From: Naegleria gruberi
Lineage: Eukaryota
Reading direction: 5' to 3' (one strand)
Length of the DNA: 7,776 nt
NCBI GenBank assembly: GCA_000004985.1
Contig: GG739108.1
The notes beneath the pieces are model-generated. The model saw nothing but the letters and a program-made list of their open reading frames with translations. It ran no database searches and was not told where the DNA came from. This document shows, piece by piece, positions 1 to 7,776 of the stretch (position 1 is the stretch's first letter; every line of letters starts with the position of its first letter). The position numbers were made by a program, and so were the translations under genes.

Positions 1-589
1 AAATTGATTTAATAAAATCTTGACTAATTATAACACTTATTACTTTATTTGTATTTAAATCTATTAATAAATGACACATTTCTTCTTTAATTGATTTTTC
101 AACTAGTATTTTAATATAATTATTTAAATCTTGTTTTTTTATATTTTTATTAATAATTGGTTCATAATTTAAATAATTTAAACAAATAAATTCAATTACC
201 ATTTCAATATTATCATCTTTTAATAATTTAATTTTATAATTATTATTATTTATATTAATTATTGTTTCATTGAGTGTTGTAGTGTAATTATTTAAATTAT
301 TATTATTATTATTATTAGTATTAGTAATATTTATTAATTCTTCTTGTTGTTGTTGTTGTTGTAATGATGATGATGATGAATTAATAAACGGAGTATTATT
401 ATTATTATTATTATTAATAATAGATGATGATAATTGTTTTAATGATTGATGATATCTATTATTATTATGTAATGTTAATTTAAACAAATTAAATGAGTTA
501 CTACTACTATTATAAGAATGATGACATTTATTTAATAGTAATGATGATGTAGATGATACTAATAACAATCTATTACAACAAGACTTCAT
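1..589 (-). CDS. Partial CDS for a hypothetical Asn/Gln/Ser-rich low-complexity protein. The N-terminal ~196 codons are present; the 3' end lies beyond the window start.
   Basis: I translated the minus strand by hand. The ATG is at 589-587 (plus-strand cat) and is directly preceded by A9 on the minus strand (plus T9 at 590-598), a typical Dictyostelium-type start context. The frame has no stop down to position 1. It begins MKSCCNRLLLVSSTSSLLLNKCHHSYNSSSNSFNLF and contains an N7 run, an S5 run, a Q6 run, a second N7 run, and the more complex stretch EMVIEFICLNYLNYEPIINKNIKKQDLNNYIKILVEKSIKEEMCHLLIDLNTNKVISVIISQDFIKSI. The supplied ORF track omits it, presumably because no stop codon falls inside the window. 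Confidence 0.5.
   Translation of the reverse strand, partial: MKSCCNRLLLVSSTSSLLLNKCHHSYNSSSNSFNLFKLTLHNNNRYHQSLKQLSSSIINNNNNNNTPFINSSSSSLQQQQQQEELINITNTNNNNNNNLNNYTTTLNETIININNNNYKIKLLKDDNIEMVIEFICLNYLNYEPIINKNIKKQDLNNYIKILVEKSIKEEMCHLLIDLNTNKVISVIISQDFIKSI
297..418 (-). repeat. Cluster of trinucleotide coding microsatellites inside the 1..589 CDS: (TTA/TAT)n at 297-317, (TTG)6 at 344-361, (ATG)5 at 364-378 and (TAT)n at 394-418.
   Basis: The repeats are read directly from the sequence. On the minus strand they are (AAT)n, (CAA)6, (TCA)5 and (AAT)n, encoding the N-runs, the Q6 run and the S5 run of the protein. Confidence 0.85.
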
Positions 590-719
590 TTTTTTTTTAA
601 AAAACAAAACAATTTTATTAAATCTTTTAATATCTATAATATAAACATTACAACAATCATGATTTAATACATTATCATTTAATACATAATCTAATAAATA
701 TCTTTTAAATTATAAAATA
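590..719 (-). promoter_or_regulatory. 130-bp AT-rich intergenic spacer between two tandem minus-strand genes. It should hold the 3' UTR and poly(A) signal of the upstream gene and the core promoter and 5' UTR of the downstream gene.
   Basis: The stop of the 720..1523 ORF is at 722-720 and the next ATG is at 589-587. The minus-strand AATAAA (plus tttatt at 614-619) lies only ~25 nt upstream of that ATG. TATA-like tatattatagatatt is present on the minus strand, and an A9 run abuts the ATG. Confidence 0.3.
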
Positions 720-1355
720 TTAAAAATCATTAATTAAATTTGTAGAACCAGTAGGTAAAATTAAATTTTTATATTTTAATTTAATTAAATGACAAGTATC
801 ATTTAATAAATTTTTATCAGATTGTAAAGAATTATTTAAATATTTAATTGATTCTAAATTATCATTTGCTCTTTTAACTAATGAACCTAATAAAGAATAT
901 TGTAAATCAATTTTTAATTCATATCTAAATTGTTCCCATTCTAATGGAAATCTATTATCAATTTTATCAACTTTAATTTTTAAATCTGAAAATTGTTTTT
1001 TTAATTTTTGTAAATGTTCTATATTTGTATTTGTATTATTTTGTGCTTTATTTAAATCATTTTCATATACATATAATGTTGTATGATATTCTTTTGATAA
1101 ATCTAAAAATTTTAATAAATTTGGTAATAAATATTTTGTATATAATAATAAATATTGTTCATATTGTGTTGTTGATTCTTGTTGACTATTAACACTTGAT
1201 AATTTCATTGTTAAATCTCCAATTGAATGAAATAAATTATGTAATGTACTACTTGTATTATTATTATTAGAATTATTAATAGAATTATTTCCATTATTAG
1301 TATTTCCATTATTAGAAGTATTATTAGAATTATTATTAGAATTATTTCCATTATT

Positions 1356-1399
<44 letters not shown>

Positions 1400-1523
1400 T
1401 CATATCAATAATATTATTATTTGCTTCAAAATTACCATAAACTTTAAATGCTCTACCAATTGAATCAAATTCAGTTAAAAAAGCTTCTTGATATTTTTTT
1501 AATTGAATTGAATTATTTAACAT
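720..1523 (-). CDS. Hypothetical 267-aa Asn-rich protein. An N-terminal helical segment (LKKYQEAFLTEFDSIGRAFKVYGNFEA) is followed by a ~70-residue poly-N/G/S/T low-complexity region and a C-terminal predicted coiled-coil/helical region. The true start may lie in the gap.
   Basis: The ORF is in the supplied track. The frame remains open for a further 10 codons upstream of the listed Met (FNQISKQLKT-M) to the edge of the N-run at 1553, so the 5' end is not established. Third codon positions are strongly A/T, as expected for coding sequence in this genome type. I do not recognise the family. The C-terminal part (YEQYLLLYTKYLLPNLLKFLDLSKEY ... FPLEWEQFRYELKIDLQYSLLGSLVKRANDNLESIKYL) looks like an amphipathic helical or coiled-coil domain. 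Confidence 0.6.
1282..1397 (-). repeat. Coding repeat region: a perfect 23-nt direct repeat gaattatttccattattagtatt at 1282-1304 and 1339-1361, with a partial third copy at 1301-1315, followed by a (TAT)13 microsatellite at 1358-1397 that is (AAT)n on the coding strand.
   Basis: Read directly from the sequence. It encodes the N15 homopolymer and the repeated TNNGNNS peptide units of the 720..1523 protein. Confidence 0.85.
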
Positions 1524-1553
1524 TGTTTTTAATTGTTTTGATATTTGATTAAA

Positions 1554-4500
1554 NNNNNNNNNNNNNNNNNNNNNNNNNNNNNNNNNNNNNNNNNNNNNNN
1601 NNNNNNNNNNNNNNNNNNNNNNNNNNNNNNNNNNNNNNNNNNNNNNNNNNNNNNNNNNNNNNNNNNNNNNNNNNNNNNNNNNNNNNNNNNNNNNNNNNNN
1701 NNNNNNNNNNNNNNNNNNNNNNNNNNNNNNNNNNNNNNNNNNNNNNNNNNNNNNNNNNNNNNNNNNNNNNNNNNNNNNNNNNNNNNNNNNNNNNNNNNNN
1801 NNNNNNNNNNNNNNNNNNNNNNNNNNNNNNNNNNNNNNNNNNNNNNNNNNNNNNNNNNNNNNNNNNNNNNNNNNNNNNNNNNNNNNNNNNNNNNNNNNNN
1901 NNNNNNNNNNNNNNNNNNNNNNNNNNNNNNNNNNNNNNNNNNNNNNNNNNNNNNNNNNNNNNNNNNNNNNNNNNNNNNNNNNNNNNNNNNNNNNNNNNNN
2001 NNNNNNNNNNNNNNNNNNNNNNNNNNNNNNNNNNNNNNNNNNNNNNNNNNNNNNNNNNNNNNNNNNNNNNNNNNNNNNNNNNNNNNNNNNNNNNNNNNNN
2101 NNNNNNNNNNNNNNNNNNNNNNNNNNNNNNNNNNNNNNNNNNNNNNNNNNNNNNNNNNNNNNNNNNNNNNNNNNNNNNNNNNNNNNNNNNNNNNNNNNNN
2201 NNNNNNNNNNNNNNNNNNNNNNNNNNNNNNNNNNNNNNNNNNNNNNNNNNNNNNNNNNNNNNNNNNNNNNNNNNNNNNNNNNNNNNNNNNNNNNNNNNNN
2301 NNNNNNNNNNNNNNNNNNNNNNNNNNNNNNNNNNNNNNNNNNNNNNNNNNNNNNNNNNNNNNNNNNNNNNNNNNNNNNNNNNNNNNNNNNNNNNNNNNNN
2401 NNNNNNNNNNNNNNNNNNNNNNNNNNNNNNNNNNNNNNNNNNNNNNNNNNNNNNNNNNNNNNNNNNNNNNNNNNNNNNNNNNNNNNNNNNNNNNNNNNNN
2501 NNNNNNNNNNNNNNNNNNNNNNNNNNNNNNNNNNNNNNNNNNNNNNNNNNNNNNNNNNNNNNNNNNNNNNNNNNNNNNNNNNNNNNNNNNNNNNNNNNNN
2601 NNNNNNNNNNNNNNNNNNNNNNNNNNNNNNNNNNNNNNNNNNNNNNNNNNNNNNNNNNNNNNNNNNNNNNNNNNNNNNNNNNNNNNNNNNNNNNNNNNNN
2701 NNNNNNNNNNNNNNNNNNNNNNNNNNNNNNNNNNNNNNNNNNNNNNNNNNNNNNNNNNNNNNNNNNNNNNNNNNNNNNNNNNNNNNNNNNNNNNNNNNNN
2801 NNNNNNNNNNNNNNNNNNNNNNNNNNNNNNNNNNNNNNNNNNNNNNNNNNNNNNNNNNNNNNNNNNNNNNNNNNNNNNNNNNNNNNNNNNNNNNNNNNNN
2901 NNNNNNNNNNNNNNNNNNNNNNNNNNNNNNNNNNNNNNNNNNNNNNNNNNNNNNNNNNNNNNNNNNNNNNNNNNNNNNNNNNNNNNNNNNNNNNNNNNNN
3001 NNNNNNNNNNNNNNNNNNNNNNNNNNNNNNNNNNNNNNNNNNNNNNNNNNNNNNNNNNNNNNNNNNNNNNNNNNNNNNNNNNNNNNNNNNNNNNNNNNNN
3101 NNNNNNNNNNNNNNNNNNNNNNNNNNNNNNNNNNNNNNNNNNNNNNNNNNNNNNNNNNNNNNNNNNNNNNNNNNNNNNNNNNNNNNNNNNNNNNNNNNNN
3201 NNNNNNNNNNNNNNNNNNNNNNNNNNNNNNNNNNNNNNNNNNNNNNNNNNNNNNNNNNNNNNNNNNNNNNNNNNNNNNNNNNNNNNNNNNNNNNNNNNNN
3301 NNNNNNNNNNNNNNNNNNNNNNNNNNNNNNNNNNNNNNNNNNNNNNNNNNNNNNNNNNNNNNNNNNNNNNNNNNNNNNNNNNNNNNNNNNNNNNNNNNNN
3401 NNNNNNNNNNNNNNNNNNNNNNNNNNNNNNNNNNNNNNNNNNNNNNNNNNNNNNNNNNNNNNNNNNNNNNNNNNNNNNNNNNNNNNNNNNNNNNNNNNNN
3501 NNNNNNNNNNNNNNNNNNNNNNNNNNNNNNNNNNNNNNNNNNNNNNNNNNNNNNNNNNNNNNNNNNNNNNNNNNNNNNNNNNNNNNNNNNNNNNNNNNNN
3601 NNNNNNNNNNNNNNNNNNNNNNNNNNNNNNNNNNNNNNNNNNNNNNNNNNNNNNNNNNNNNNNNNNNNNNNNNNNNNNNNNNNNNNNNNNNNNNNNNNNN
3701 NNNNNNNNNNNNNNNNNNNNNNNNNNNNNNNNNNNNNNNNNNNNNNNNNNNNNNNNNNNNNNNNNNNNNNNNNNNNNNNNNNNNNNNNNNNNNNNNNNNN
3801 NNNNNNNNNNNNNNNNNNNNNNNNNNNNNNNNNNNNNNNNNNNNNNNNNNNNNNNNNNNNNNNNNNNNNNNNNNNNNNNNNNNNNNNNNNNNNNNNNNNN
3901 NNNNNNNNNNNNNNNNNNNNNNNNNNNNNNNNNNNNNNNNNNNNNNNNNNNNNNNNNNNNNNNNNNNNNNNNNNNNNNNNNNNNNNNNNNNNNNNNNNNN
4001 NNNNNNNNNNNNNNNNNNNNNNNNNNNNNNNNNNNNNNNNNNNNNNNNNNNNNNNNNNNNNNNNNNNNNNNNNNNNNNNNNNNNNNNNNNNNNNNNNNNN
4101 NNNNNNNNNNNNNNNNNNNNNNNNNNNNNNNNNNNNNNNNNNNNNNNNNNNNNNNNNNNNNNNNNNNNNNNNNNNNNNNNNNNNNNNNNNNNNNNNNNNN
4201 NNNNNNNNNNNNNNNNNNNNNNNNNNNNNNNNNNNNNNNNNNNNNNNNNNNNNNNNNNNNNNNNNNNNNNNNNNNNNNNNNNNNNNNNNNNNNNNNNNNN
4301 NNNNNNNNNNNNNNNNNNNNNNNNNNNNNNNNNNNNNNNNNNNNNNNNNNNNNNNNNNNNNNNNNNNNNNNNNNNNNNNNNNNNNNNNNNNNNNNNNNNN
4401 NNNNNNNNNNNNNNNNNNNNNNNNNNNNNNNNNNNNNNNNNNNNNNNNNNNNNNNNNNNNNNNNNNNNNNNNNNNNNNNNNNNNNNNNNNNNNNNNNNNN

Positions 4501-6389
4501 NNNNNNNNNNNNNNNNNNNNNNNNNNNNNNNNNNNNNNNNNNNNNNNNNNNNNNNNNNNNNNNNNNNNNNNNNNNNNNNNNNNNNNNNNNNNNNNNNNNN
4601 NNNNNNNNNNNNNNNNNNNNNNNNNNNNNNNNNNNNNNNNNNNNNNNNNNNNNNNNNNNNNNNNNNNNNNNNNNNNNNNNNNNNNNNNNNNNNNNNNNNN
4701 NNNNNNNNNNNNNNNNNNNNNNNNNNNNNNNNNNNNNNNNNNNNNNNNNNNNNNNNNNNNNNNNNNNNNNNNNNNNNNNNNNNNNNNNNNNNNNNNNNNN
4801 NNNNNNNNNNNNNNNNNNNNNNNNNNNNNNNNNNNNNNNNNNNNNNNNNNNNNNNNNNNNNNNNNNNNNNNNNNNNNNNNNNNNNNNNNNNNNNNNNNNN
4901 NNNNNNNNNNNNNNNNNNNNNNNNNNNNNNNNNNNNNNNNNNNNNNNNNNNNNNNNNNNNNNNNNNNNNNNNNNNNNNNNNNNNNNNNNNNNNNNNNNNN
5001 NNNNNNNNNNNNNNNNNNNNNNNNNNNNNNNNNNNNNNNNNNNNNNNNNNNNNNNNNNNNNNNNNNNNNNNNNNNNNNNNNNNNNNNNNNNNNNNNNNNN
5101 NNNNNNNNNNNNNNNNNNNNNNNNNNNNNNNNNNNNNNNNNNNNNNNNNNNNNNNNNNNNNNNNNNNNNNNNNNNNNNNNNNNNNNNNNNNNNNNNNNNN
5201 NNNNNNNNNNNNNNNNNNNNNNNNNNNNNNNNNNNNNNNNNNNNNNNNNNNNNNNNNNNNNNNNNNNNNNNNNNNNNNNNNNNNNNNNNNNNNNNNNNNN
5301 NNNNNNNNNNNNNNNNNNNNNNNNNNNNNNNNNNNNNNNNNNNNNNNNNNNNNNNNNNNNNNNNNNNNNNNNNNNNNNNNNNNNNNNNNNNNNNNNNNNN
5401 NNNNNNNNNNNNNNNNNNNNNNNNNNNNNNNNNNNNNNNNNNNNNNNNNNNNNNNNNNNNNNNNNNNNNNNNNNNNNNNNNNNNNNNNNNNNNNNNNNNN
5501 NNNNNNNNNNNNNNNNNNNNNNNNNNNNNNNNNNNNNNNNNNNNNNNNNNNNNNNNNNNNNNNNNNNNNNNNNNNNNNNNNNNNNNNNNNNNNNNNNNNN
5601 NNNNNNNNNNNNNNNNNNNNNNNNNNNNNNNNNNNNNNNNNNNNNNNNNNNNNNNNNNNNNNNNNNNNNNNNNNNNNNNNNNNNNNNNNNNNNNNNNNNN
5701 NNNNNNNNNNNNNNNNNNNNNNNNNNNNNNNNNNNNNNNNNNNNNNNNNNNNNNNNNNNNNNNNNNNNNNNNNNNNNNNNNNNNNNNNNNNNNNNNNNNN
5801 NNNNNNNNNNNNNNNNNNNNNNNNNNNNNNNNNNNNNNNNNNNNNNNNNNNNNNNNNNNNNNNNNNNNNNNNNNNNNNNNNNNNNNNNNNNNNNNNNNNN
5901 NNNNNNNNNNNNNNNNNNNNNNNNNNNNNNNNNNNNNNNNNNNNNNNNNNNNNNNNNNNNNNNNNNNNNNNNNNNNNNNNNNNNNNNNNNNNNNNNNNNN
6001 NNNNNNNNNNNNNNNNNNNNNNNNNNNNNNNNNNNNNNNNNNNNNNNNNNNNNNNNNNNNNNNNNNNNNNNNNNNNNNNNNNNNNNNNNNNNNNNNNNNN
6101 NNNNNNNNNNNNNNNNNNNNNNNNNNNNNNNNNNNNNNNNNNNNNNNNNNNNNNNNNNNNNNNNNNNNNNNNNNNNNNNNNNNNNNNNNNNNNNNNNNNN
6201 NNNNNNNNNNNNNNNNNNNNNNNNNNNNNNNNNNNNNNNNNNNNNNNNNNNNNNNNNNNNNNNNNNNNNNNNNNNNNNNNNNNNNNNNNNNNNNNNNNNN
6301 NNNNNNNNNNNNNNNNNNNNNNNNNNNNNNNNNNNNNNNNNNNNNNNNNNNNNNNNNNNNNNNNNNNNNNNNNNNNNNNNNNNNNNNNN
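1554..6389. other. Unresolved sequence: an assembly gap or masked region of 4,836 consecutive N.
   Basis: Contiguous n characters. The non-round length suggests a size-estimated scaffold gap or a deliberately masked interval. The 1774-aa + ORF 1545..6869 in the track is an artefact of translating N as X; only its last 159 codons are real. Confidence 0.99.
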
Positions 6390-6869
6390 TTATATCAATT
6401 TGGTATTACAGTTTCAATTTGTTTCTTTACTGAAACATGGAAACCAGATTCATTCTATGATAAAGTTAAAAAGAATAGAGAAAATGGACTTCATACTTTA
6501 TGTTTATTAGATATTAAAGTTAAAGAACCAACAGAAGAAACTTTAATTAGACCTTCTTTAAAGAAATATATGCCACCTCGTTTTATGACTGTTAATCAAG
6601 CTATTGATGAATTATTAGAAATTGAAGAATTGAGAAAGGAAAATGTTTACAATGAAAATACAATGTGTGTTGGTTTGGCACGTGTTGGTGCTAAAGATCA
6701 ACAAGTTGTTTATGGTTCTTTAAAGGAATTGAGAGAATTAGATTGGGGTGAACCTTTACATTCACTTGTTATGTGTGCTCCTGAAAAGGATATTCACTTT
6801 TTAGAACAAGAACATTTGGAATATTTTTCTGTTAAAAAGTTTTTACAAGAAAAGAATAAACAACAATAA
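6390..6869 (+). CDS. dph5: Diphthine synthase (diphthine methyl ester synthase, DPH5; class III SAM-dependent tetrapyrrole-methylase-fold enzyme of the EF-2 diphthamide pathway). Only the C-terminal 159 codons plus the stop are present; the gene is 5'-truncated by the gap.
   Basis: The translation is LYQFGITVSICFFTETWKPDSFYDKVKKNRENGLHTLCLLDIKVKEPTEETLIRPSLKKYMPPRFMTVNQAIDELLEIEE...CVGLARVGAKDQQVVYGSLKELRELDWGEPLHSLVMCAPE...*. From memory it matches the conserved C-terminal half of eukaryotic DPH5 (human and yeast). The matching blocks are LYxFGETVSIxFWTDTWRPESFFDKVKxNRxNGMHTLCLLDIKVKE, PPRYMSVNQA, CVGLARVG and GEPLHSL. The first resolved base, 6390, is in codon phase with this frame. The stop TAA is at 6867-6869. 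Confidence 0.85.
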   Translation, partial: LYQFGITVSICFFTETWKPDSFYDKVKKNRENGLHTLCLLDIKVKEPTEETLIRPSLKKYMPPRFMTVNQAIDELLEIEELRKENVYNENTMCVGLARVGAKDQQVVYGSLKELRELDWGEPLHSLVMCAPEKDIHFLEQEHLEYFSVKKFLQEKNKQQ

Positions 6870-6946
6870 TTATTGAGGTTTTGTTTATATAAATAATAAT
6901 TATTTAATATATTTTACTAAGTAAAAATAATTGTTTAAATCTCTAA

Positions 6947-7053
6947 AGAGAGGTAATGAATGATATTAATAGAAATGGTGCTGCACAGAATCAGCTGGAG
7001 GTATAAAAGTTATATACTATTATTTTAAATTTACAGTCAGGCTGTACCTCTCT
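6947..7053. repeat. Perfect 9-bp inverted repeat, AGAGAGGTA at 6947-6955 and TACCTCTCT at 7045-7053, bracketing an 89-nt GC-enriched segment in the DPH5 downstream spacer. It could be the closing stem of a structured RNA or DNA element.
   Basis: Seen directly in the sequence. The enclosed segment has roughly 30-38% G+C, against far lower G+C in typical intergenic DNA of this genome type. An inner hairpin GCTG-cacagaat-CAGC and the CAGCTG palindrome lie at ~6980-6997. Confidence 0.4.
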
Positions 7054-7058
7054 AAAAC

Positions 7059-7086
7059 TTATAATTAAGGAAGAGCTGTTTTTTTT
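7059..7086 (+). promoter_or_regulatory. Candidate core promoter for the downstream + strand gene: a TATA-like box TTATAATTAA (7059-7068) followed ~10 nt later by an oligo(dT) run T8 (7079-7086).
   Basis: A TATA box followed by a short T-run just upstream of the transcription start is the characteristic Dictyostelium core promoter layout (established knowledge). The first candidate ATGs downstream are at 7099 and 7143. Confidence 0.3.
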
Positions 7087-7142
7087 ACCGCCAAAATTAT
7101 GAACCAAGCCTTTTATTCAATTTTAACAGCCTTTAAAAAAAC

Positions 7143-7244
7143 ATGCAAAATCAACCACCTCCACCACCCAACAATAGTGCAAACAACTCAAGCCTGGGTG
7201 GTTCCGTTCCACAGTATCATAACTTTCAACCACAACAACAATGA
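7143..7244 (+). CDS. Short 33-codon ORF (MQNQPPPPPNNSANNSSLGGSVPQYHNFQPQQQ*) with coding-like codon bias. It is probably the true 5' end of the 7241-7774 gene displaced by a frameshift, and alternatively a uORF.
   Basis: Third codon positions are ~72% A/T in this frame and ~39% in the +1 frame. The remaining frame hits a stop within 11 codons. The ORF overlaps the downstream frame, which is open from 7223, by 22 nt. Its Q/N/P-rich composition matches the downstream protein. Confidence 0.3.
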   Translation: MQNQPPPPPNNSANNSSLGGSVPQYHNFQPQQQ

Positions 7245-7774
7245 ACCACAACAGTAATAGTGCTACTAACAGTAATATTCATCATCAATTCCCTCCTGTT
7301 GGTATTAGTATTGGAAATTATCAAAATTCAACAACAGCACCACAACAACCAACACCAACAACAACATCATTCATTGGAAGTGTTAATCATCATACTAACT
7401 CTATGGGTGAATCATCACCTCCACAACCTAGTCTTATTAAAAGAAGACCTCTAAGGGAACATAATACACTAAGAAAATCTACTCAACAACAATCTCAACA
7501 ACCTAATATACTAAGTAATCATAATAATTCAACAACAATTCAACCTACAATTCAACAACCTATATTATCAAATTCTATCATTAAACCACCAACAATTTCT
7601 AACAGTGCAAGTATTTCATCACCATTTGTAAATCAAACGTTCTTCAATACTTCAAATAATAACTTGCCATCAACACCTACTTTTACTAATAATAACAATG
7701 CTAATATACCTACTAATAATAGATATCATGAATACTCTATTGAAGATAGTCCTATTTATAAAACACCAACCTAA
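7241..7774 (+). CDS. Hypothetical 177-aa Asn/Gln/Thr/Ser/Pro-rich low-complexity protein with one basic patch (KRRPLREHNTLRK).
   Basis: The ORF is in the supplied track and its stop TAA is at 7772-7774. Third codon positions are overwhelmingly A/T, consistent with coding sequence in this genome type. There is no recognisable domain. The N-terminus is uncertain (see 7143-7244). Confidence 0.5.
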   Translation: MNHNSNSATNSNIHHQFPPVGISIGNYQNSTTAPQQPTPTTTSFIGSVNHHTNSMGESSPPQPSLIKRRPLREHNTLRKSTQQQSQQPNILSNHNNSTTIQPTIQQPILSNSIIKPPTISNSASISSPFVNQTFFNTSNNNLPSTPTFTNNNNANIPTNNRYHEYSIEDSPIYKTPT

Positions 7775-7776
7775 TG

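What the first reader, a model, noticed from the sequence alone, without database searches (positions are those of the whole stretch)
7099..7263. All three plus-strand frames are open across a GC-enriched segment, and the coding-like frame switches between 7223 and 7244
Frame 0 (ATG 7143 to TGA 7242-7244) has strong Dictyostelium-type A/T third-position bias and a Q/N/P-rich product. The frame carrying the long downstream ORF (ATG 7241) is closed by a TAA at 7220-7222, so the two coding-like frames overlap by only 22 nt inside the simple repeat caaccacaacaacaatgaacc. A third ORF (ATG 7099 to TAA 7255-7257, 52 aa) covers the same DNA but has poor codon bias. The simplest explanation is a 1-nt indel error or polymorphism in the caacaa/A-run, so that the real protein starts at 7143 and continues into the 7241 ORF. 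Alternatives are a genuine uORF or a programmed ribosomal frameshift; the latter is unlikely.
Basis: seen in the sequence. Interest (0 to 1): 0.5.

Follow-up and report, generated by a model that had tools for sequence, protein, structure and literature searches.

The report
Probable one-base frameshift in Naegleria gene
The apparent switch of reading frame lies at the start of an uncharacterised, low-complexity gene of the amoeba Naegleria gruberi (not Dictyostelium), and is most likely a single-base gain or loss in a thinly covered draft contig that cuts about 33 codons off the annotated protein; it is an ordinary assembly or annotation problem.

Summary
The coordinates are correct. ORFs run 7099-7257, 7143-7244 and 7241-7774. 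TAA 7220 and TGA 7242 leave a 22-nt overlap. The title overstates the case: the long ORF's frame has four stops in 7099-7222, so all three frames are open only at 7223-7241, and stop codons are not depleted once composition is allowed for.

The window is a whole 7,776-nt Naegleria gruberi scaffold, made of two small contigs around a 4.8-kb N gap. ORF 7241-7774 is the annotated orphan NAEGRDRAFT_76725. The neighbouring gene is a heterolobosean diphthine synthase.

Frame 0 (7143-7241) looks coding:
- its codon score matches in-frame windows of real genes;
- it shares k-mers in the same codon phase with the downstream ORF;
- its third-position GC content continues across the junction;
- ATG 7143 has the A-run context typical of heterolobosean start codons, whereas ATG 7241 follows C-rich, coding-like sequence.

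Frameshifting is unsupported: there is no slippery heptamer and no downstream RNA structure. Frame-restoring GT..AG pairs exist (41-95 nt) but look like coding sequence.

Best reading (about 0.55): a 1-nt indel within 7223-7241, either an assembly error or a real allele, splits a roughly 210-aa coding sequence. I could retrieve no independent reads or close orthologue, so this is unproven. Interest is low.

The parts
7143..7244 (+). Frame-0 ORF of 33 codons plus TGA. It is the probable true N-terminal coding segment of the downstream gene.
   Evidence: ORF listed. Codon log-likelihood is +7.6 to +13 bits, against -5 to -25 in the other two frames, and is comparable to in-frame windows of real genes. 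Its k-mers match the downstream ORF in the same codon phase in 47% of pairs against 33% expected. The five-proline run is spelled with synonymous codons: CCA CCT CCA CCA CCC.
7132..7145 (+). Start context tttaaaaaaacATG of ATG 7143.
   Evidence: It has an A7 run and 80% A+T in positions -30 to -1. This resembles the 18 reference start codons taken from heterolobosean loci and from the left contig of this window. A similar T[T/A]TAAAAAAAC element lies upstream of the syntenic gene in L002.
7223..7241 (+). The only interval where a single-base indel can join frame 0 to the ORF frame without meeting a stop. It is also the only place where all three frames are open.
   Evidence: It is bounded by TAA 7220-7222 in the ORF frame and TGA 7242-7244 in frame 0. 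One extra base here gives ...YHNFQPQQQ(M)NHNSNS....
7241..7774 (+). Annotated CDS NAEGRDRAFT_76725 (XP_002668362.1 / EFC35618.1 / D2W5N4), 177 aa. It is a low-complexity orphan rich in N, S, T, Q and P.
   Evidence: 100% identical to P0001, 'predicted protein [Naegleria gruberi]', on a contig of length 7776. GC3 is 0.11 and the +1 frame carries 30 stops. No Pfam domain. No homologue in an exhaustive HMMER scan.
7439..7471 (+). Motif KRRPLREHNTL, the only block shared with the syntenic gene of a related heterolobosean (L002: RRKQLREHKTL).
   Evidence: BLASTP gives 10/28 identities, E = 2e-4. The L002 gene lies directly downstream of dph5 in the same orientation. The motif occurs in no other fetched locus.
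7099..7257 (+). Frame-1 ORF of 52 codons. It is a by-product of composition and does not look coding.
   Evidence: ORF listed. Codon score is -11 to -25 bits and GC3 is 0.48-0.61.
7214..7272 (+). Candidate short GT..AG introns that would restore the frame: donor GTATCA at 7214, acceptors at 7254, 7260 or 7272 (also 7308).
   Evidence: Enumerated, with lengths 41, 47, 59 and 95 nt. Their A+T content (63-66%) equals that of the flanking coding DNA. They are not part of the deposited gene model.
6390..6869 (+). C-terminal 159 codons and stop of diphthine synthase (Dph5), truncated by the N gap. It is the upstream neighbour and fixes the organism.
   Evidence: Best relatives are 85% and 81% identical (unnamed Logan and ENA contigs), then Willaertia magna at 75% and Acrasis kona at 59%. 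Dictyostelids reach only 55-61%.
1554..6389 (.). Run of N (scaffold gap) separating two small contigs, 1-1553 and 6390-7776.

Best explanation
The window is a complete small scaffold of the Sanger draft genome of Naegleria gruberi NEG-M. The gene downstream of dph5 (NAEGRDRAFT_76725) most likely begins at ATG 7143, not at the annotated ATG 7241. Its first ~33 codons (MQNQPPPPPNNSANNSSLGGSVPQYHNFQPQQQ) are displaced from the rest of the reading frame by a single-base indel within 7223-7241. One base is missing relative to an intact frame; equivalently, two are extra. The most probable cause is a base-calling or assembly error in a 1,387-nt, presumably very low-coverage contig. A real frameshift allele in this heterozygous strain is the next most probable cause. 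The gene predictor then took the first ATG of the longest ORF and produced a truncated 177-aa model in place of a ~210-aa protein.

Shown: the ORF geometry, the organism, the coding-like statistics of frame 0, and the start-codon contexts. Inferred: that an indel exists at all, and that it is an artefact and not a real allele.
For: (1) Organism and assembly. ORF 7241-7774 is 100% identical to N. gruberi XP_002668362.1, whose contig length is 7776. The Dph5 neighbour is heterolobosean. NEG-M was sequenced by Sanger technology and is heterozygous. The right-hand contig is only 1,387 nt and sits next to a 4.8-kb gap.
(2) Frame 0 looks coding. Its codon score is +7.6 to +13 bits against negative scores in both other frames. 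In-frame windows of the real ORF average +5.6, and intergenic windows never exceed -2.1. The shuffle P is 0.002-0.009 with the model trained on the downstream ORF. Shared 5-mers are phase-concordant in 123 of 261 pairs, the same level as the Dph5-versus-ORF positive control (232 of 484), whereas the intergenic control shows no such enrichment.
(3) Continuity. GC3 is 5/15, 5/15 and 5/15 in successive 15-codon blocks across the junction, then falls to 0-1/15.
(4) Start contexts. ATG 7143 follows tttaaaaaaac, with 80% A+T and an A7 run. The 18 reference start codons have 63-90% A+T and 3-20% C. ATG 7241 follows C-rich (30% C) coding-like sequence, outside that range. No other ATG lies between 7143 and 7241 in any frame.
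(5) Only a 19-nt interval permits a one-base repair, and it lies in a CAA/CCA-rich stretch.
Against: No independent sequence of this locus could be obtained, so the indel is hypothetical. With a codon model trained only on Dph5, frame 0 is not better than shuffles of itself (P = 0.26). Part of the signal is therefore shared low-complexity composition. Frame-0 GC3 (0.30) differs from the ORF as a whole (0.11, p = 0.011). The overlap has no homopolymer longer than 3 nt, so it is not a classic slippage-prone site. The one syntenic orthologue (L002) has only ~20 residues before the conserved motif, so a long N-terminal extension is not conserved. The deposited gene model starts at 7241.
Confidence: 0.55

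Rival explanations
1. The sequence is correct and the protein starts at ATG 7241. Positions 7099-7240 are a 5' leader or promoter-proximal region. The 33-codon ORF, whose TGA overlaps the main ATG as ATGA, and the 52-codon ORF are upstream ORFs: either incidental products of the T/G-poor composition or regulators acting through leaky scanning or reinitiation. If transcription starts after 7143, ATG 7241 is simply the first AUG of the mRNA.
For: The deposited model starts at 7241. Stops are not depleted relative to composition, and an ORF of at least 33 codons arises in 7.4% of shuffles. There is no ATG between 7143 and 7241. Frame-0 GC3 is higher than in the ORF as a whole. The Dph5-trained codon model does not beat shuffles. 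The orthologue in L002 has a short N-terminus.
Against: Frame 0 scores like real coding windows and far above the true intergenic DNA of this window. Its k-mers are phase-concordant with the ORF. The proline run uses synonymous codons. The sequence upstream of ATG 7241 is unlike the 18 reference leaders, while that upstream of ATG 7143 is typical.
Confidence: 0.22
2. The indel is real, either fixed or one allele in strain NEG-M. The ancestral N-terminus, starting at 7143, has been cut off by a genuine frameshift, and the gene now uses ATG 7241 or is decaying.
For: All the coding-like evidence for frame 0 applies equally. N. gruberi is reported to be heterozygous. The gene is a fast-evolving orphan with no detectable homologues, so it may tolerate loss of the N-terminus.
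Against: Sequence alone cannot separate this from an assembly error. An error is the more economical explanation for a 1.4-kb contig in a Sanger draft.
Confidence: 0.15
3. A very short spliceosomal intron (donor GTATCA at 7214; acceptor AG at 7254, 7260, 7272 or 7308; 41-95 nt) is removed. This joins frame 0 to the ORF frame and gives a protein of 178-196 aa that starts at ATG 7143.
For: All four GT..AG pairs restore a stop-free frame. The 59-nt version ends in tactaacag, which resembles a branch-point sequence. A minimum intron length of 30 bp was used for read mapping in N. fowleri, 'based on an assessment of predicted genes' (PMC8296547).
Against: The candidate introns have 63-66% A+T, the same as the flanking coding DNA, and keep its codon-like CAA/AAC/AGT texture. 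The donor lacks the usual G at position +5 (general knowledge of splice sites). The mean N. gruberi intron is 203 bp and there are only 1.7 exons per gene. In the 59-nt version the branch-like motif directly abuts the AG. The deposited model has no intron.
Confidence: 0.06
4. Programmed -1 ribosomal frameshifting, or transcriptional slippage, within 7223-7241 fuses the two frames.
For: Only the geometry supports this: a -1 relationship between the frames and a 22-nt overlap.
Against: The overlap (c ttt caa cca caa caa caa tga) contains no X XXY YYZ slippery heptamer. No stable structure lies downstream: z = -1.0 for 7245-7330 and +1.2 for 7223-7300. There is no long homopolymer to support transcriptional slippage. 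No conservation data are available.
Confidence: 0.02

Closest known systems
Frameshift errors or indel alleles that split or truncate gene models in low-coverage draft (Sanger) assemblies
   Same: Two coding-like frames abut with a short overlap. The geometry allows repair by one base. The contig is tiny and sits next to a scaffold gap. The gene predictor chose the first ATG of the longest ORF.
   Different: The error itself was not demonstrated, because no second copy or reads of the locus were available. The overlap has no long homopolymer.
Upstream ORFs that overlap the main start codon (AUGA stop/start overlap; leaky scanning or reinitiation)
   Same: The stop of the 33-codon ORF (TGA 7242-7244) overlaps ATG 7241-7243. 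A second ORF, from ATG 7099, also spans the main start.
   Different: The upstream ORF has the codon and amino-acid character of the main ORF, and its ATG has the typical start context. Neither is expected for a generic uORF. The transcript 5' end is unknown.
Canonical -1 programmed ribosomal frameshift sites (slippery heptamer + spacer + stem-loop or pseudoknot)
   Same: The frames have a -1 relationship and a short overlap.
   Different: There is no slippery heptamer and no downstream structure above shuffle expectation.

Membership tests
-1 programmed ribosomal frameshift site | Slippery heptamer X XXY YYZ in the zero frame inside the overlap | tested here: not met
   The overlap reads c ttt caa cca caa caa caa tga (7223-7244) and contains no such heptamer.
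-1 programmed ribosomal frameshift site | Stable stem-loop or pseudoknot 5-9 nt downstream | tested here: not met
   7245-7330 folds at -11.9 kcal/mol, z = -1.0. 7223-7300 folds at -2.2 kcal/mol, z = +1.17.
-1 programmed ribosomal frameshift site | Conservation of the frame arrangement in relatives | not testable with these tools
   No alignable orthologue of the N-terminal region was found. The syntenic L002 gene has a single frame from its ATG.
Regulatory upstream ORF | Lies within the transcribed 5' leader of the main ORF | not testable with these tools
   No transcript or 5'-end data were available for N. gruberi.
Regulatory upstream ORF | AUG-initiated short ORF upstream of, or overlapping, the main start, in another frame | tested here: met
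   ORFs 7143-7244 and 7099-7257 both overlap ATG 7241.
Regulatory upstream ORF | Distinct from the main coding sequence (not simply a displaced part of it) | tested here: inconclusive
   Frame 0 shares codon usage, k-mer phase and amino-acid composition with the main ORF. This points to a displaced part of the CDS but does not prove it.
Spliceosomal intron (GT-AG) | GT..AG boundaries that restore a continuous frame | tested here: met
   Donor at 7214 with acceptors at 7254, 7260, 7272, 7308 and others.
Spliceosomal intron (GT-AG) | Composition and length typical of the organism's introns, and loss of coding periodicity | tested here: not met
   The candidates have 63-66% A+T, the same as the flanking coding DNA, with codon-like texture. 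The mean N. gruberi intron is 203 bp. No N. gruberi intron set was available for a formal model.
Spliceosomal intron (GT-AG) | Spliced transcripts observed | not testable with these tools
   No RNA data were accessible.
Assembly or sequencing indel artefact | Independent reads or assemblies disagree with the deposited base count | not testable with these tools
   Exact-product look-ups for the 177-, 33- and 52-aa ORFs found no other contig. Metagenome scans found no close relative.
Assembly or sequencing indel artefact | Both flanking frames are coding-like and a single base restores one ORF with a plausible start | tested here: met
Diphthine synthase (Dph5, TP_methylase) - neighbouring gene | High full-length similarity of the fragment to Dph5 proteins | tested here: met
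   1,360 hits at E <= 1e-20, nearly all of the listed ones with PF00590. The best are 85%, 81% and 75% identical. The C-terminal fragment alone scores below the Pfam cut-off (14.4 against 27.8 bits), as expected for a truncated piece.

The most novel reading that the evidence does not exclude
The deposited sequence is exact, and Naegleria ribosomes (or its RNA polymerase) shift by -1 within the CAA/CCA-rich stretch 7223-7241 without a canonical slippery heptamer or stimulatory structure. Alternatively, a 41-59-nt intron of coding-like composition is spliced out. Either route would produce a trans-frame ~200-aa protein from ATG 7143.
Probability: 0.04. Interest if true: 0.55.

Novelty: not a real feature. 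Interest (0 to 1): 0.1.

Why it matters
If the indel reading is right, the only consequence is a corrected gene model. NAEGRDRAFT_76725 would gain 33 N-terminal residues, and the scaffold would be flagged as low quality. The scaffold also carries an unannotated, gap-broken dph5. The case gives no new biology. The practical lessons are these:
- AT-rich, N/Q-rich sequence is not diagnostic of Dictyostelium.
- Short frame overlaps in tiny draft contigs should be treated as assembly problems until reads say otherwise.
- The A-run before the ATG is a useful cue for choosing the start codon in heteroloboseans.

Tried and rejected
- Rfam and tRNA scans of the right-hand contig found nothing above threshold.
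- The tandem-repeat finder reported no array in the overlap.
- A word-indexed search with the fused 210-aa conceptual protein found only the deposited 177-aa protein.
- An exhaustive HMMER scan with the 177-aa ORF against 1.84 billion representatives found only itself.
- A search with the 69-aa syntenic fragment from L002 found nothing.
- Pfam found no domain in any of the three ORFs.
- A JGI metagenome scan with the fused protein found no relative. A scan with Dph5 found only distant eukaryotes, at most 57% identity over the full fragment and 69% over a partial match.
- Exact-product look-ups for the 177-, 33- and 52-aa ORFs returned no record, so there is no independent assembly.
- A literature search for the gene's identifiers returned no papers. 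The original genome paper is not held.
- L001 (Dph5 85% identical) has a different, minus-strand gene downstream, and the Willaertia locus L003 also lacks synteny.
- DNA alignment of the intergenic regions of the window and L002 showed only short matches.
- An upstream exon from ATG 6956 with donor GAG|GTATAA was rejected by inspecting the sequence and the frame map. No acceptor reaches an open frame.
- A substitution error was rejected in place of an indel. Frame 2 upstream has three more stops and no ATG. Frame 0 downstream encodes a hydrophobic product with poor codon usage and stops at 7452.
- The Dictyostelium origin was rejected.

Full report
**What the window is.** The 7,776-nt window consists of two short contigs, 1-1553 and 6390-7776, joined by 4,836 N. 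ORF 7241-7774 is 100% identical to a 177-aa 'predicted protein [Naegleria gruberi]' whose only contig is 7,776 nt long. Its accessions are XP_002668362.1, EFC35618.1, NAEGRDRAFT_76725 and UniProt D2W5N4. The window is therefore a complete small scaffold of the N. gruberi NEG-M draft genome. That genome was produced by Sanger sequencing from a heterozygous strain (PMC9928731). It has about 33-35% GC, 1.7 exons per gene and a mean intron length of 203 bp (PMC8296547).

The gene just upstream (6390-6869) is the C-terminal 159 codons of diphthine synthase (Dph5). Its closest relatives are two unnamed contigs (85% and 81% identity), then Willaertia magna (75%) and Acrasis kona (59%). Dictyostelid Dph5 proteins reach only 55-61%. 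The A/T third-position bias and N/Q/S-rich products are also properties of this heterolobosean.

**Check of the observation.** The three ORFs, the TAA at 7220-7222, the TGA at 7242-7244, the 22-nt overlap and the caaccacaacaacaatgaacc stretch are all at the stated coordinates. The title is overstated. The frame of the long ORF carries stops at 7100, 7124, 7175 and 7220, and frame 0 carries stops at 7134 and 7242. All three frames are open only over 7223-7241. The openness follows from composition: the segment has 39% A, 28% C, 22% T and 11% G. It holds 8 stop triplets against 5.2 +/- 1.5 in dinucleotide shuffles, so stops are not depleted. An ATG-ORF of at least 33 codons appears in 7.4% of shuffles. 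The real observation is narrower: a coding-like frame changes by -1 within a 19-22-nt interval.

**Is frame 0 (7143-7241) coding?** I trained codon tables on the in-window genes.
- Frame 0 scores +7.6 bits with the Dph5 model, +13.1 with the downstream-ORF model and +10.4 with both.
- The other two frames score -5 to -25 bits.
- In-frame 32-codon windows of the real ORF, scored with the independent Dph5 model, average +5.6 bits.
- Windows of the true intergenic DNA (6870-7142) never exceed -4.3 or -2.1, depending on the model.
- Against dinucleotide shuffles of the segment itself, the score is exceptional with the ORF-trained or combined model (P = 0.002-0.007).
- It is not exceptional with the Dph5-only model (P = 0.26), so part of the signal is shared low-complexity composition.

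K-mers shared between the segment and the downstream ORF fall in the same codon phase in 123 of 261 pairs (47%, against 33% expected). That is the same level as the Dph5-versus-ORF positive control (232 of 484, 48%). The intergenic control shows no such bias. The overlapping k-mers are not independent, so the nominal p-values are inflated.

The five-proline run is spelled CCA CCT CCA CCA CCC, that is, with variation only at third positions. GC3 of frame 0 (0.30) is higher than that of the ORF as a whole (0.11, p = 0.011). Successive 15-codon blocks across the junction give 5, 5, 5 and then 1, 0, 3, 1, 0 G/C-ending codons, so the two frames form one compositional continuum. Frame 1 (the 52-aa ORF) has no coding character.

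**Start codons.** I compared 18 start codons. Seventeen are annotated or homology-anchored starts from three heterolobosean loci (L001, L002, L003), and one is from the left contig of this window. Their leaders have 63-90% A+T and 3-20% C over positions -30 to -1, and most have a run of A just before the ATG. Examples are gaaaaaaaaATG for Dph5 in L001 and ttgaaaaaaATG in L002. A second minus-strand ORF in the left contig also starts after ttaaaaaaaaa.

ATG 7143 fits this pattern: tttaaaaaaacATG, 80% A+T, an A7 run. ATG 7241 follows caaccacaacaaca, with 30% C, outside the reference range, and its longest A run is 2. No ATG occurs in any frame between 7143 and 7241.

**Orthologues.** The gene is an orphan. 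Neither the word-indexed search with the fused protein nor an exhaustive HMMER scan of 1.84 billion representatives found anything except the deposited protein. Pfam finds no domain.

The one informative relative is an ENA metagenome contig (L002, Dph5 81% identical). An ORF starts 177 nt after the dph5 stop, in the same orientation, and shares the block RRKQLREHKTL with the window's KRRPLREHNTL at 7439-7471 (BLASTP E = 2e-4). In L002 only ~20 residues precede the motif. In N. gruberi 66 residues (from ATG 7241) or 99 residues (from ATG 7143) precede it. The N-terminal region is therefore not conserved and cannot decide which start is used. L001 and the Willaertia locus lack synteny. Two JGI metagenome scans yielded no close relative.

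**Alternatives tested.**
- *Programmed -1 frameshifting.* The overlap (c ttt caa cca caa caa caa tga) has no X XXY YYZ heptamer. The downstream RNA is no more structured than shuffles (z = -1.0 and +1.2).
- *Splicing.* A systematic enumeration found frame-restoring GT..AG pairs. The short ones share the donor GTATCA at 7214, with acceptors at 7254, 7260, 7272 and 7308 (41, 47, 59 and 95 nt). All have 63-66% A+T, which matches the surrounding coding DNA, and they would remove codon-like sequence. This option is unlikely but cannot be excluded without RNA data. A 30-bp minimum intron length has been used for read mapping in N. fowleri.
- *An upstream exon from ATG 6956.* No acceptor downstream of its GAG|GTATAA donor reaches an open frame (inspection of the sequence and the frame map).
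- *A substitution in place of an indel.* This fails because of further stops.

**Conclusion.** The best-supported reading, at about 0.55 together with its real-allele variant, is a single-base indel within 7223-7241. The coding region would otherwise be continuous from ATG 7143 and encode about 210 aa: MQNQPPPPPNNSANNSSLGGSVPQYHNFQPQQQ followed by (M)NHNSNS.... Given a 1.4-kb contig in a Sanger draft, a base-calling or assembly error is the most economical cause. This rests on the size of the contig, and read depth was not available.

The main rival (about 0.22) is that the sequence is right and 7099-7240 is a leader with incidental or regulatory uORFs. A real frameshift allele (about 0.15), a short intron (about 0.06) and recoding (about 0.02) follow. 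None of these can be separated further without reads or transcripts of N. gruberi, which the available collections did not contain. The finding is ordinary: a likely gene-model or assembly defect in a low-complexity orphan gene.

Noticed in passing
window 6947-7055: A GC-richer island lies between the dph5 stop and ATG 7143. It is closed by a 9-bp inverted repeat, AGAGAGGTA...TACCTCTCT. As RNA it folds at -27.6 kcal/mol, z = -2.44, with 3 of 200 shuffles as stable. There is no Rfam match. It contains a 16-codon mini-ORF (ATG 6956 to TAA 7004) ending in GAG|GTATAA. Its nature is unknown: small RNA, terminator or promoter element, or chance.
   Followed up: partly
window 1-1553: The left contig has only 11-17% GC, against 22-38% in the right contig. 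It carries two minus-strand ORFs with poly-N and poly-Q tracts: 1523->720 (267 aa, GC3 0.02) and 589->2 (at least 196 aa, running off the scaffold). The exact 267-aa product is not in the protein collection, and there are only sub-threshold Pfam hits. Whether this contig really belongs to the same organism and locus was not verified.
   Followed up: partly
window 1554-6389 and 6390-6869: A 4,836-N scaffold gap removes the N-terminal ~118 codons of diphthine synthase (dph5). No 100%-identical Dph5 protein exists in the database (best 85%). This conserved gene therefore appears to be unannotated in N. gruberi because the gap breaks it.
   Followed up: partly
window 7772-7776: The TAA stop of the 177-aa ORF lies 2 nt from the end of the scaffold. 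The C-terminus and 3' end of the gene rest on the extreme end of a contig and may be unreliable.
   Followed up: no
window 7132-7146; L002 1023-1037: A similar element, T[T/A]TAAAAAAAC(A)TGC, precedes the syntenic genes in both species. It directly abuts ATG 7143 in the window and lies 9 nt upstream of the ATG in L002. A-runs before the ATG recur at most heterolobosean start codons examined.
   Followed up: partly
window 7439-7471; L002 1103-1135: The short basic motif (K/R)R(K/R)xLREH(N/K)TL is the only conserved block of this orphan protein between two heteroloboseans. It may mark the functional core, for example a nuclear-localisation-like or binding motif. Its function is unknown.
   Followed up: no
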